From: Harriotta raleighana
Taxonomy: Eukaryota
Assembly: GCA_050575255.1 (NCBI GenBank)
Contig: JBNZDD010013632.1
Location: 2,054,480-2,118,479, forward strand
DNA length: 64,000 bases
Direction of reading: 5' to 3'
A program made the position numbers. Shown here in pieces: positions 27,001 to 30,000 of this stretch (position 1 is its first letter; the number at the start of each line of letters is the position of its first letter).

Positions 27001-30000
27001 CTTTTGTAGGTTTCAAAGGAGCTGAAATCTGCTCATACACCTAGATTGTATATATTTAACGTTCTGCGTGGTTTGAATTTTCAGACCTGATTTTTCTCGT
27101 GGAAATCATGGGAAGTGTGCTGTTTTGGGGGATATTGGCCATCGTTCAAAGGCGTGTGTGTTTTAATAATAATACTGTAATATAGTAAAACCTTGTTTAT
27201 CTGGCACCCACGGGACCTGGCAAATGGCGGTTAAATGGTTTTCTGGTTAAACGGATAAAAAAAAAATTGTAATTAATAAAACAAATGTAAAATTATTTTA
27301 ACACAGTATTAACAGATTACCAGCTCCCACCCTGTGCAAACACAGGAAGCTGTCGTCTGTACGCCGCTAACCCTCAGCGAGGGGAAGGCACGGTCAATTA
27401 CTGTGAAGCCTTCTTGCAAGGTATTTGAATTGATTGAATACCCTGGACTTGCAGAGAGAGAGTGAGAGCACACACATACAGGCAGTCCTCAAGTTACGTC
27501 AGGGTTAGGTTCCTAAGATGTGGTGTAAGTTGAATTTGTATGTAAGTCGAGTCACCCCCCTATAATGCTTACAGTAACATACAGTGATTGGTTGTAGTGT
27601 ATAGTGGGCTGCCCTCTCTCCCTTGCACCCCTCCTAATATGTACTGTACTGTAAATAAAATAAAATATTACTATACTTACATGGCTTCATTGGGAGTCTG
27701 GCACTCGATGTAGCGCAACACAGGAGATCACACGCGATGTAGTGCAACGCAGATCACATGCGACATAGCGCAACGCAGGAGATCACATGCGACGTGGCGC
27801 AACACAGATCACACGTGACGTAGCGCAGTCTAAAGGCTGGAGAGTACTGTCCCGCCGAGCTCACAGACTCACATAGTACCTGTACAGTACACACTCGCGT
27901 CTCGCCTCCATCCTGTTCCTGTCCTGAACGCGTATTGTGGTCCCGTAAGTGTTGAGAGCGGCGACTCCAGTTTTCTATTGCGTGTGGGGCAACTAAAGTA
28001 TTTACATAGTAGTGTCGTAACTTCGAGACTTTGGATGTACCTTGGACTTAATTTTACTGATATTAAGCGTCGTAAATTATCCAGCAGACTAGTAAAGAAC
28101 ATTTAATGAATGGATTGTCACACGTGAGTACTGATGCAGTTATATCGGCGGCCGCTAGTTGAGCCTAAAGTTGCGCTACTGCGCTATCACAGATAAACAA
28201 GGTTTTACTGTAATAATCCTTGCATTTGATTTAGCCGGCACAGACTAGATGGGCCGAATGGCCTCCTTTTGTGCCGTAAAATTCTATGAATCTATGAATA
28301 AATTCGAATTGTCGTACCTCGGAACGTCGTAACTAGAGGACTGCCTATACATGTAAATGTTGAACAATACTATATAAATAATAGACTAAATACACTAATA
28401 ACAGATATTATACTAACAGAATATTGTATTAGTGCTTTATAATTTATACTTAACTTCTACAATGGCAGCCAAAGGACAAAAAAAAATCGGGAAAACAGCA
28501 TTTTTAAAAAAAATGGTAGTATCATGAGTTTTGAAAAAATCGTCAGTAGCGCAACTTTAGGCTCAACTAGCGGCCGCCGATATAACTGCATCAGTACTCA
28601 CGTGCGACAATCCATTCATTAAATGTTCTTTACTAGTCTGCTGGATAACTTCCGGTTCATTGAATCGGGACTTTTATTTGAGATAGGGGTTGAACGGGTT
28701 TGCCTGTTCATCAAATCACAGATAAACAAGGTTTTACTGTAATAATCCTTGCATTTGATTTTGCGCTTTTTACATCTTATCGATATTACAGAATATACTG
28801 TAAAGTGAATTGACTGTATATTTGTGGGTGAAACACAGCAGCCAATTATGCACAGCAGCATCCCACAAATAGTTGTGGATTGAAGTGACCAATTTTTATT
28901 ATTGTGTTTTATTTGGACAGATTATTATTCGGTATGTGGAGTAAGGAAAGTTGTCCCAAGGTTTCACCTCGATCTGCCTGATCTGCCTGTTTCAGATGGC
29001 TCCGCATCACCTTCAGCATATAGTGTACAGCTGCAGTCTCAGCAATAGTTAGTGAGAAACATATATTACAGGCAACTAAACTTTCAAAGGTTATTTCAGC
29101 AGCTCTTTGATCTCCTGTTTCCGTACCTCCCAAACCCATAACAATCTCTGTTCTGAGAAGCTGAGAAGTCACAGCCAAGCACACAACTATGATTGAGTCT
29201 GCTCTAATGACACTCAAGGACCTTTTGACTTTACCCAGCCTACCCTTTGTCCTGCATCAGGCATGATTGAAGTGCTTTTTGTCATTCCTCCAGGTCTTTC
29301 TCACTTGCAGTCTAACATGTAATTTTAGGATCATTTATTTTCACAATCTCTGCACCTGCTTTTGGTTCAAACAGCAATCAGATTTCTGTCGATTCCAAAA
29401 TAAATTAACAAGGAAGCAAAAATGTCATCACCCTTTCTTGAATCCCTTACTCACCCTGGACCAAAAGATGTACAATTGTGAATAACTTTGCACCTGATTT
29501 CGTGACAGAATGTTAGACCCACACATATCTTGGAAAATTCGTAACCACACTGTACATTAATTATTTCAGCCATATTTTGCAATTTACAATGCACTTTCTA
29601 GTGATTTTGTAATTATCTTTTGGGGAACAAAATGGGATAATTATTTTTGAAAATAAGGATAGATTAACATTATAATCATTGCTATGTAAGAGAATAAGCA
29701 ATTAAAGTATAGAAAGACATAAAGTATTTCACATCTTGGAATTACAGAGTCATTTTTGATGAAGGGCATACCACAATCGACCAGTGAGTAATTGCAATGA
29801 CCTTCCAATGATTTTTTCCAATCTTTGGAAAACATCAGTGAGGAGAAGACAAAGGTAGGGATTATGAATTGAAATTTAATGCATTTAACCTTGAAAACAT
29901 CAACACAAATACAGACTTACATTAATATTACCTTCTTTAATAATGTTGAATGAAAAACCCTCTGAATTGCACATCTAAATTGAATTTGAAATTTGAACCA

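What the first reader, a model, noticed from the sequence alone, without database searches (positions are those of the whole stretch)
28073..28304. CR1 insertion whose 5' end is built from two pieces copied from the target locus itself
Seen in sequence: relative to MITE B copy 1 (cgtaacttcgaatt), copy 2 has an insert bounded by a duplicated TAAATT (28073-28078 and 28299-28304). The insert has four parts. (i) 28077-28181 is an inverted copy of 28544-28648 (105 nt, one CpG-type mismatch, TT microhomology at the junction). (ii) A short gcgcta stutter follows. (iii) 28186-28232 is an exact direct copy of 28715-28761 (47 nt) spanning the MITE-A/SINE junction, which should be unique to this locus, so the template was most likely local DNA 250-460 bp downstream. 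(iv) 28233-28298 is a 66-nt CR1 3' end with its octamer tail. Inference: this was one TPRT event in which the nascent cDNA jumped at least twice onto nearby genomic strands (RT template switching or Pol-theta-like templated joining) before resolving with a TSD. Local templated 5' additions are known for mammalian L1; a two-switch example for a CR1-clade element is unusual to my knowledge.
Basis: partly seen in the sequence, partly recalled or inferred. Interest (0 to 1): 0.72.

Follow-up and report, generated by a model that had tools for sequence, protein, structure and literature searches.

The report
CR1 tail insertion padded with local DNA
A 220-base insertion consists of the 3' tip of a CR1-type retrotransposon plus two patches copied from DNA 240-460 bases away; it is a clean natural example of a known, untidy way in which such insertions are completed, not a new mechanism.

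Summary
A 220-nt insert (28079-28298) lies between two copies of TAAATT inside a MITE. The paralogous MITE copy (599-1260) has that hexamer position once.

The insert has four parts:
- an inverted copy of 28544-28648 (104 of 105 identical);
- 4 slipped nucleotides;
- an exact direct copy of 28715-28761 (47 nt);
- a 66-nt CR1-type 3' end with a hairpin and two octamer units.

The 47-nt piece crosses a locus-specific junction between a MITE terminus and a SINE tail. Other copies of the source MITE in the window are only 70-79% identical to it. So the templates were local.

Best reading (0.72): one endonuclease-initiated retroposition event whose 5' end was completed by DNA-templated synthesis on the adjacent flank.

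Which 3' end made which patch, and which polymerase did it, cannot be told. "The cDNA jumped twice" is therefore only one of three topologies that all fit.

Flank-templated 5' extra nucleotides are published for zebrafish ZfL2-2 (CR1-2_DR), and templated genomic inserts for human L1. I therefore file this as a new member of a known kind.

Reads, alleles, orthologues and the rest of the genome could not be checked.

The parts
28073..28078 (.). Left copy of the target-site duplication TAAATT. Its last two bases (TT) are shared with the inverted patch.
   Evidence: In MITE B copy 1 the two flank matches overlap by 6 nt.
28077..28181 (-). Patch i: inverted copy of 28544-28648 (104 of 105 identical; the one difference is CG to CA in the insert).
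28182..28185 (.). Four filler bases. With the flanking G and A they repeat the hexamer GCGCTA that lies 8 nt to the left (a slippage signature).
28186..28232 (+). Patch iii: exact direct copy of 28715-28761 (47 nt), made of a MITE A terminus, TA, and a SINE tail end.
28233..28298 (+). CR1-type 3' end, 66 nt. Hairpin at 28236-28276; octamer units at 28281-28288 and 28289-28296, then AA. There is no coding part.
   Evidence: fold. (octamer and hairpin as the CR1 3' structure, paper passages). (no second copy in the window).
28299..28304 (.). Right copy of the target-site duplication TAAATT. Its first T could equally belong to the tail.
28544..28648 (+). Template of patch i. It is an internal part of MITE A and sits in its family-typical context.
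   Evidence: 28396-28739 aligns as one block with MITE A copy 1 (525-214, 70%).
28715..28761 (+). Template of patch iii: the last 25 nt of MITE A, its TA duplication, and 20 nt of the neighbouring SINE tail end.
27477..28347 (+). MITE B copy 2, the host of the insertion. Its inverted termini are flanked by TA (27475-76 and 28348-49).
   Evidence: I4; copy 1 = 599-1260; read
27183..28739 (+). MITE A copy 2, flanked by TA (27181-82 and 28740-41). It carries MITE B nested inside and supplied both templates.
   Evidence: (I2, I3), (read)
28742..28956 (-). SINE-like repeat, probably tRNA-derived, in minus orientation. Its 3' end with (ATT)n tail abuts MITE A. The far bound is approximate.
   Evidence: six other copies; D4; tRNA-like hits inside two other copies

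Best explanation
This is one retroposition event by the CR1 machinery. The template was a CR1 RNA or an RNA carrying a CR1 3' module.

Proposed course of events:
1. The bottom strand of MITE B was nicked at the left edge of TAAATT, and the top strand 6 nt further on.
2. Reverse transcription started on the octamer tail and copied only the tail and the 3' hairpin (66 nt).
3. The 5' side was then completed by DNA-templated synthesis on the adjacent right-hand flank. That is the arm to which the first-strand cDNA is covalently attached.
4. 47 nt were copied from 28761 back to 28715, 411-457 nt from the site.
5. After a slipped re-priming (GCGCTA written twice), 105 nt were copied from 28544 to 28648 on the other strand, 240-344 nt from the site.
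6. The end was sealed to the upstream DNA at a TT microhomology, leaving a 6-bp TSD.

Shown directly: the copy relations, the orientations, the junction bases, the TSD, and the local origin of the templates.

Inferred: the order of steps, which of the two 3' ends made each patch, and whether the CR1 RT or a host polymerase did the DNA-templated copying.

The event left a 105-bp near-perfect inverted repeat with a 362-nt spacer.
For: - TSD and paralogous empty site: copy-1 matches 599-1214 and 1209-1260 overlap by 6 nt. The chance of such a 6-nt match is about 3.4e-4.
- The TSD encloses the whole composite. The octamer tail abuts the right TSD.
- CR1 3' module: a 16-bp hairpin, one exact and one 7-of-8 match to the octamer ATTCTRTG, which a paper names with the hairpin as the CR1 3' structure.
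- Local templates. Patch iii crosses a MITE A / TA / SINE junction. In the window 7 other sites match only its MITE A part and 6 match only its SINE part; none spans both except 28715-28764. Patch i is 104 of 105 identical to the local MITE A, while the next best window match is 75% over 73 nt. MITE A copies are 70-79% alike.
- Direction of copying: the sources lie in contiguous family context, and the single difference is derived in the insert.
- These are the only two non-tandem local high-identity duplications in 64 kb, and they sit side by side next to the CR1 end.
- Junctions carry 0-2 nt of microhomology plus a slippage stutter. That is the pattern described for LINE 5' joining.
- A short (5-bp) TSD and frequent flank-templated 5' extras are reported for related zebrafish LINEs.
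Against: - There are no reads, no second allele and no orthologue, so the empty site rests on a 90%-identical paralogue only.
- The CR1 assignment rests on 66 nt of structure and motif. No repeat library was available and no second copy of the family lies in the window. The only relative is an old 33-nt relic at 91%.
- One templating step needs the top strand and the other the bottom strand of the same arm. That calls for duplex opening, a sister chromatid, or a replication context.
- Patches of 47 and 105 nt are longer than the 'several extra nucleotides' mentioned for ZfL2-2. I could not see the published length range.
- One event and closely spaced events cannot be separated by divergence (1 difference in 152 nt).
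Confidence: 0.72

Rival explanations
1. Same single event, different topology. The reciprocal (left, top-strand) 3' overhang ending in TAAATT primed DNA synthesis on the downstream flank and made the inverted patch, or both patches. The two extended ends then annealed. This would be a DNA-templated analogue of twin priming. The cDNA itself then made one jump or none.
For: - The left flank 28071-28078 matches the reverse complement of 28647-28654 at 6 of 8 positions, including the terminal TT.
- A short TSD is proposed to melt and expose exactly such an overhang for annealing.
- For L1, oppositely oriented pieces are read as products of two ends.
Against: The extra similarity is weak: 4 of 6 beyond TT, P about 0.045 by binomial and 0.047 empirically. 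The final sequence is identical under either topology, so nothing here discriminates.
Confidence: 0.3
2. Two or more separate events. An ordinary truncated CR1 insertion with its TSD came first. Later a break at its 5' junction was repaired with locally templated patches (alternative end joining or replication-based template switching).
For: Locally templated patch repair exists independently of retroposition (my own knowledge; not tested here). Divergence cannot order the parts, with 0 of 47 and 1 of 105 differences.
Against: - It needs a second break exactly at the CR1 5' junction without loss of the left TSD.
- No other local patch duplication occurs in the 64 kb, so such repair is not frequent here.
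Confidence: 0.08
3. RNA-level chimera. The RT switched from the CR1 RNA to nascent sense and then antisense transcripts of the same locus, so no DNA template was used.
For: RNA-to-RNA template switching by the CR1 RT is proposed for SINE genesis. It is documented for L1 chimeras (listing, 23).
Against: - It requires transcripts of both strands of a MITE/SINE patch.
- Proximity within 460 nt is explained naturally by DNA and only indirectly by RNA.
- The 8-nt slip and the very short microhomologies fit either reading.
Confidence: 0.07
4. A break repair or replication-based rearrangement (FoSTeS/MMBIR-like), or a DNA-transposon excision footprint, that picked up a CR1 fragment from DNA, with no TPRT involved.
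For: Multiple template switches, inverted and direct patches and a stutter are typical of such repair (my own knowledge).
Against: - The CR1 piece ends in its own tail exactly at the TSD.
- It consists of precisely the hairpin-plus-tail module.
- No CR1 DNA source lies in the window.
- A clean 6-bp TSD is present.
Confidence: 0.05
5. A pre-formed mosaic or a paralogous locus. The composite was made elsewhere, or this locus is part of a segmental duplication, and the insert arrived ready-made.
For: Only 64 kb could be searched, so copies elsewhere cannot be excluded.
Against: Both patches match this locus at 151 of 152 positions. One of them crosses a MITE insertion junction that should be unique. 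No second copy of any junction lies in the window.
Confidence: 0.04
6. An assembly or sequencing artefact, such as a chimeric read or a wrong path through repeats.
For: The assembly shows other artefact-like features. Four of the 6 single-N sites are flanked by near-identical tandem duplications.
Against: - The finding lies 10,354 nt from the nearest N.
- Its junctions share 0-2 nt, not read-overlap or k-mer lengths.
- An artefact would not create a TSD or place a CR1 tail against it.
- The copy differs from its source by a CpG transition.
Confidence: 0.04

Closest known systems
5' extra nucleotides of zebrafish ZfL2-2 (also called CR1-2_DR) and ZfL2-1 inserts (Kajikawa, Yamaguchi and Okada 2012, as cited in PMC4245944 and PMC4760211; PMC2666801)
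   Same: - The LINE has a stem-loop and repeat tail and a short TSD of about 5 bp.
[quoted passage not shown]
- A large share of these extras are templated from flanking sequence.
- Annealing at 1-2 nt of microhomology and a template-jump model are discussed (passages seen).
   Different: - Those extras are described as 'several' nucleotides. Here there are two patches of 47 and 105 nt, one of them inverted, from 240-457 nt away.
- The 2012 paper itself is not held, and I did not open the junction tables in the supplements of PMC2666801. The published length range is therefore unknown to me.
- Most of those data come from cell-culture assays, whereas this is a natural genomic copy.
Complex human L1 insertions with templated genomic DNA and local inverted duplications (PMC11702581, preprint)
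   Same: - TSD and tail hallmarks of TPRT occur together with extra pieces.
- Template switching, self-annealing of the cDNA end after resection, inverted duplications at the target, and 'templated genomic DNA insertions' are all described.
- ORF2p can use a DNA template (passages seen).
   Different: - That work concerns L1 with a poly-A tail and a roughly 15-bp TSD, in experimental over-expression in human cells.
- Here the element is CR1-type with a 6-bp TSD, fixed or segregating in a natural genome.
L1 twin priming / 5' inversion
   Same: Two 3' ends at a staggered break, each able to prime, give an inverted 5' part (mentioned).
   Different: In twin priming the inverted part is LINE sequence copied from the RNA. 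Here the inverted part is flank DNA and the CR1 part is not inverted, so this is not a member.
Template switching by the CR1 reverse transcriptase in SINE genesis (PittSINE, PMC5729268)
   Same: During TPRT the CR1 RT leaves its template just upstream of the CR1-derived tail. The product is a foreign head plus a CR1 tail, flanked by a TSD.
   Different: There the second template is a tRNA (RNA) and the product became a family. Here the added pieces are local DNA sequence and only one copy is known.
Polymerase-theta-type templated insertions and FoSTeS/MMBIR template switching
   Same: Short microhomologies, repeated priming and slippage, and direct and inverted local templates (my own knowledge; alt-NHEJ and polymerase theta are named).
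   Different: Those are defined by enzymes and a repair context that cannot be read from one sequence. Here the event is tied to a retroposition hallmark (tail plus TSD).

Membership tests
CR1-type LINE 3' end | Stable hairpin just upstream of the tail | tested here: met
   16-bp hairpin at 28236-28276, -21.7 kcal/mol, z -3.2, with 1 of 200 shuffles folding as well. The feature is named.
CR1-type LINE 3' end | Octamer microsatellite tail (ATTCTRTG, as printed in PMC8665684) | tested here: met
   28281-28288 matches 8 of 8 and 28289-28296 matches 7 of 8, followed by AA (motif).
CR1-type LINE 3' end | Sequence homology to a curated CR1 family, or to copies with EN/RT reading frames | not testable with these tools
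   - No repeat library or eukaryotic genome is on hand.
- There is no second copy in the window.
- None of the 7 ORFs of at least 120 aa in the window overlaps 27041-29300.
- Rfam finds nothing in 27000-29200.
- A CR1-tailed SINE RNA as template cannot be excluded.
Endonuclease-dependent TPRT insertion | Target-site duplication enclosing the whole insert, with the site single in an uninterrupted copy | tested here: met
   TAAATT occurs twice. In the paralogous MITE B copy the two flank matches overlap by 6 nt. This is a paralogue, not an allele.
Endonuclease-dependent TPRT insertion | Complete 3' tail abutting the TSD, with 5' truncation | tested here: met
   The tail ends at 28298 and the TSD starts at 28299. 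Only 66 nt of the element are present.
Endonuclease-dependent TPRT insertion | Empty allele or orthologous empty site | not testable with these tools
   No reads, population data or related genomes are available. The one open contig collection holds bacterial and archaeal genomes only and was not scanned.
Flank-templated 5' extra nucleotides of LINE inserts | The extra sequence between the LINE 5' end and the upstream TSD matches the flank of the same locus | tested here: met
   152 of the 156 extra nucleotides (28077-28232) lie in the two patches, and 151 of those 152 match 28544-28648 and 28715-28761. The locus-specific junction is inside patch iii.
Flank-templated 5' extra nucleotides of LINE inserts | Microhomology at the joints | tested here: inconclusive
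   Shared bases at the joints are TT (2 nt), A (1 nt), and 0 nt (or GC after one mismatch). The extended 6-of-8 match at the left joint has P about 0.045.
Twin priming (5' inversion) | The inverted segment is LINE sequence | tested here: not met
   The inverted segment is MITE A sequence from the flank.
Polymerase-theta-mediated end joining | Dependence on that polymerase | not testable with these tools
   Sequence alone cannot name the polymerase.

The most novel reading that the evidence does not exclude
After clearing its 3' hairpin, within 0-3 nt of it, the CR1 reverse transcriptase itself left the RNA and went on copying DNA of the arm it was tethered to, first one strand and then the other.

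If this is recurrent in this genome, CR1 integration would be a systematic source of two things:
- local inverted repeats, here a 105-bp stem;
- 'foreign head plus CR1 recognition module' chimeras, the raw material from which new CR1-dependent SINEs arise.
Probability: 0.15. Interest if true: 0.55.

Novelty: new member of a known kind. Interest (0 to 1): 0.35.

Why it matters
This locus is an unusually legible fossil of how a LINE 5' end gets joined. Both templates survive next to the product, and every junction can be read to the base. Nested MITEs give a relative time order: SINE, then MITE A, then MITE B, then this event.

It extends to a natural CR1-type copy, and to patches of 47 and 105 nt, what cell-culture work on zebrafish L2/CR1-like LINEs and on human L1 has described.

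It also shows that such events can create long inverted repeats and head-plus-CR1-tail chimeras.

It does not reveal a new mechanism. Its value would grow only if a genome-wide census showed the pattern to be frequent.

Tried and rejected
- Other copies of this CR1 3' end in the window, to define the family boundary and look for more padded 5' ends. Two motif searches with up to 3 mismatches found only the query itself (1 of 1 match each). BLAST found one old 33-nt relic at 61174-61206. No census was possible.
- CR1 coding sequence. Only 7 ORFs of at least 120 aa exist in 64 kb and none lies near the finding. I ran no protein search.
- Rfam. Nothing in 27000-29200 at E up to 1. There are two tRNA-like hits elsewhere in the window.
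- Chance or a general tendency to local duplication. Rejected by the window self-comparison.
- Twin priming proper. Rejected, because the inverted part is not LINE sequence.
- A repeat-graph misjoin. Rejected, because the junctions share only 0-2 nt.
- Papers not held: Ichiyanagi et al. 2007 and Gilbert et al. 2005. Kajikawa et al. 2012 is known to me only through citing passages.
- One literature search returned nothing.
- The bacterial/archaeal contig collection was not scanned, because it cannot hold this vertebrate-like locus.
- I do not take the window for human. It has young Tc1-like MITEs, a young CR1 tail, 38% GC and a CpG observed/expected ratio of 0.38. I did not try to name the organism.
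Full report
1. What is there

I read 26800-29300 and ran repeat finding on 26500-29500.

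Inside a MITE ("MITE B", copy 2, 27477-28347) a 220-nt insert occupies 28079-28298, between TAAATT at 28073-28078 and TAAATT at 28299-28304. From left to right the insert holds:
- Patch i, 28077-28181. This is the reverse complement of 28544-28648, with 104 of 105 identical. Its first two bases (TT) are shared with the TSD.
- Four bases, 28182-28185. With the G before and the A after, they write GCGCTA a second time, 8 nt to the right of the first (28173-28178 and 28181-28186).
- Patch iii, 28186-28232. This is identical to 28715-28761 (47 nt), or 50 nt with one mismatch if the match is run on to 28235/28764.
- A 66-nt piece, 28233-28298. It has no counterpart in the window apart from a 33-nt, 91% relic at 61174-61206 on the minus strand.

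2. More than chance

The whole window was compared with itself. Eight pairs reach at least 94% identity over at least 30 nt:
- these two pairs;
- four tandem duplications that each flank a single N;
- two MITE-to-MITE matches.

The two patches are thus the only non-tandem local high-identity duplications in 64 kb, and they lie side by side. A 6-nt repeat at one fixed junction has a probability of about 3.4e-4 at this base composition.

3. The empty site

A second copy of MITE B lies at 599-1260. I compared the two halves of copy 2 apart:
- 27477-28078 aligns with 599-1214 (90.4% over 625 columns).
- 28299-28350 aligns with 1209-1260 (94.2% over 52).

The two alignments overlap in copy 1 by exactly six bases, 1209-1214, which read TAACTT. 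The uninterrupted paralogue therefore has the hexamer once, with one substitution, and the insert with one hexamer copy is the extra material.

This is a paralogue and not an allele, so it shows what the MITE looked like, not that this locus was ever empty. In one search I also printed a version of copy 2 with the insert taken out. That step should not have been made. It is not used here, and the overlap above gives the same information.

4. What the CR1 piece is

As RNA, 28233-28298 folds into a 16-bp interrupted hairpin at 28236-28276 (-21.7 kcal/mol; shuffles average -13.2 with sd 2.7; z -3.2; 1 of 200 shuffles folds as well). A single-stranded tail follows, reading ATTCTATG (28281-28288), AATCTATG (28289-28296), then AA.

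Passages of two papers describe a hairpin plus an octamer microsatellite as the conserved 3' structure of CR1 elements and the presumed recognition site of their reverse transcriptase. One of them prints the octamer as ATTCTRTG (PMC4316615; PMC8665684). The first unit matches 8 of 8 and the second 7 of 8.

The piece therefore carries both structural hallmarks of a CR1 3' end and nothing else. Only 3 nt, or none if the GC at 28234-28235 belongs to patch iii, lie upstream of the hairpin.

I could not compare it with a curated CR1. No coding part is present; none of the 7 ORFs of at least 120 aa in the window is near it. Rfam has nothing in 27000-29200. An RNA of a CR1-tailed SINE would give the same 66 nt.

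5. Where the patches came from

The surroundings are nested repeats.

"MITE A" copy 2 runs from 27183 to 28739, with inverted termini (I2 and I3) flanked by TA. MITE B sits inside it. MITE A itself sits in the A/T-rich tail of a SINE-like repeat that continues to about 28956.

Patch i's source, 28544-28648, is internal MITE A sequence. The stretch 28396-28739 aligns as one block with another MITE A copy at 525-214 (70.1% over 348 columns). The source is therefore in its family context and the copy in the insert is the derived one.

The single difference points the same way. The source and MITE A copy 1 both have CG, and the insert has CA.

Patch iii's source consists of the last 25 nt of MITE A, its TA, and 20 nt of the SINE-like repeat. 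In the window:
- 7 other sites match only the MITE A part;
- 6 match only the SINE part;
- none spans both except 28715-28764.

A MITE insertion junction should be unique to its locus. MITE A copies in the window are only 70-79% alike, and the best non-local match to patch i is 75% over 73 nt, against 99% for the local source. Both templates therefore lay in the 457 nt to the right of the insertion site, at 240-344 and 411-457 nt from the end of the right TSD.

Rfam finds tRNA-like sequences inside two of the other SINE copies, on the strand opposite to the one on which I had aligned them (21256-21325 plus, 54269-54340 minus). The part next to MITE A is therefore the reverse complement of the SINE's 3' end with its (ATT)n tail, not its head.

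6. How it most likely arose

Three points are shown directly:
- One TSD encloses the whole composite.
- The tail abuts the right TSD.
- The CR1 part is the minimal 3' module.

These are the marks of endonuclease-initiated, target-primed reverse transcription with early loss of the RNA template. CR1 copies are known for severe 5' truncation.

From the geometry I infer the following. The bottom strand was nicked at the left edge of TAAATT and primed on the octamer tail. One T at 28299 could belong to either the tail or the TSD. The top strand was cut 6 nt further on. The first-strand cDNA is then continuous with the bottom strand of the right arm, the arm that holds both templates.

If that one end did everything:
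- It left the RNA at 28233, with no shared base, or GC after one mismatch.
- It copied the top strand from 28761 back to 28715.
- It moved to the bottom strand with a single shared A.
- It made 4-5 nt, slipped back 8 nt, and copied 28544 to 28648. This amounts to a snap-back on its own strand.
- It was joined to the upstream overhang at TT.

The same sequence arises if the other 3' end, the top-strand overhang ending in TAAATT, primed patch i. The left flank 28071-28078 matches the reverse complement of 28647-28654 at 6 of 8 positions. Four of six beyond the TT, however, has P about 0.045 (binomial) and 0.047 (empirical), which is a hint and no more. The same sequence also arises if that end made both patches and then annealed to the cDNA.

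"At least two jumps by the cDNA" is therefore one of three topologies, and this locus cannot tell them apart. Nor can the sequence say whether the CR1 enzyme or a host polymerase copied the DNA.

Relative age is clear. The order is SINE, then MITE A, then MITE B, then this event. The two MITE B copies differ by about 10%, while the patches differ from their sources at 1 of 152 positions.

7. Rivals

- Separate events (CR1 first, patch repair later). This needs a second break exactly at the 5' junction that spares the TSD, in a window that shows no other patch repair.
- An RNA-level chimera. This needs local transcripts of both strands. RNA-to-RNA switching by the CR1 RT is proposed for SINE birth, so it cannot be dismissed.
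- Repair or replication template switching that captured CR1 DNA. This does not explain why the captured piece is exactly hairpin plus tail, set against a TSD.
- A pre-formed mosaic. This is contradicted by the locus-specific junction, but only within 64 kb.
- An artefact. The assembly does have suspicious tandem duplications at 4 of its 6 single-N sites. However, the finding lies 10,354 nt from the nearest N. Its junctions share 0-2 nt. An artefact creates neither a TSD nor a CpG transition between copy and source.

8. Comparison with what is known

Zebrafish ZfL2-2 is also called CR1-2_DR. Passages in three papers say the following:
- A large share of these are templated from flanking sequence.
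- The related ZfL2-1 makes 5-bp TSDs, whose melting is thought to expose a 3' overhang for annealing.
- A template-jump model is favoured.
(PMC4245944; PMC4760211; PMC2666801.)

For human L1, a preprint reports complex insertions with TPRT hallmarks. They include template switching, self-annealing of the cDNA end after resection, inverted duplications at the target, and "templated genomic DNA insertions". It notes that ORF2p can use a DNA template (PMC11702581).

The kind of event is therefore known, and known in the CR1/L2 group.

Three things may go beyond the descriptions I could read. The patches are long (47 and 105 nt, against "several" nucleotides). One direct and one inverted patch are combined with a stutter. 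The setting is a natural genomic copy.

The primary paper on templated extras (Gene 2012) is not held. Ichiyanagi 2007 and Gilbert 2005 are not held either. I did not open the junction tables in the supplements. Those sources may already contain patches of this size.

None of the listed papers describes one. That is a statement about those searches only.

9. Consequence

The event created a 105-bp near-perfect inverted repeat separated by 362 nt. As single-stranded DNA, 28060-28665 folds with that stem at -169 kcal/mol, against -55 with sd 3.5 for 20 shuffles. It also created a unit made of a foreign head and a CR1 recognition module, the architecture proposed for nascent CR1-dependent SINEs. 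Only one copy is known here.

10. Verdict

The event is a new member of a known kind. Interest is 0.35.

The following stayed unchecked:
- reads;
- alleles;
- orthologues;
- the rest of the genome;
- any repeat library.

The one open contig collection holds only bacteria and archaea and was not scanned. I do not take the window for human.

Noticed in passing
window 1381-1783, 5264-5575, 38427-38657, 58035-58200: Four of the six single-N sites (1582, 5417, 38542, 58116) sit at the joint of a near-identical tandem duplication of 81-201 nt (97.4-100% identical). This looks like unmerged overlapping contig ends, some perhaps from two haplotypes. The Ns at 38991 and 54992 show no such duplication at this threshold. 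Nothing was filled in.
   Followed up: partly
window 214-1260 and 27183-28739: MITE A and MITE B are associated at both places where MITE B occurs. At the first, MITE B (599-1260) abuts the end of a MITE A copy (214-600). At the second it is nested inside MITE A. This could be an insertion preference for TA sites in MITE A, or chance with n = 2.
   Followed up: partly
window 27320-27471 and 28355-28395: MITE A copy 2 carries internal sequence around the MITE B insertion that has no counterpart in MITE A copy 1. It is either a longer subfamily or a further nested fragment.
   Followed up: no
window 27702-27827 and 842-967: Both MITE B copies hold an internal CpG-rich tandem array with a period of 26 (alternating 26 and 29 in copy 2) and 4.6-4.8 units. 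Many differences between units are CpG transitions.
   Followed up: no
window 21256-21325 (+), 54269-54340 (-), with SINE-like copies ending at 15843, 21558, 26329, 39445, 45125, 54030 and 28742: A SINE-like family with seven copies in 64 kb. Two copies contain a tRNA-like stretch above the Rfam gathering score, which sets the family's orientation. Its 3' end carries an (ATT)n tail. The local copy has an internal deletion relative to the others.
   Followed up: partly
window 61174-61206 (-): An old relic of a related CR1-type 3' end (33 nt, 91%). It ends in a shorter, degenerate tail, and nothing recognisable lies upstream of it.
   Followed up: partly
window 28071-28654: The event left a 105-111-bp inverted repeat with a 362-nt spacer, predicted to form a very stable stem. 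Such repeats can be fragile or give rise to hairpin RNAs.
   Followed up: partly
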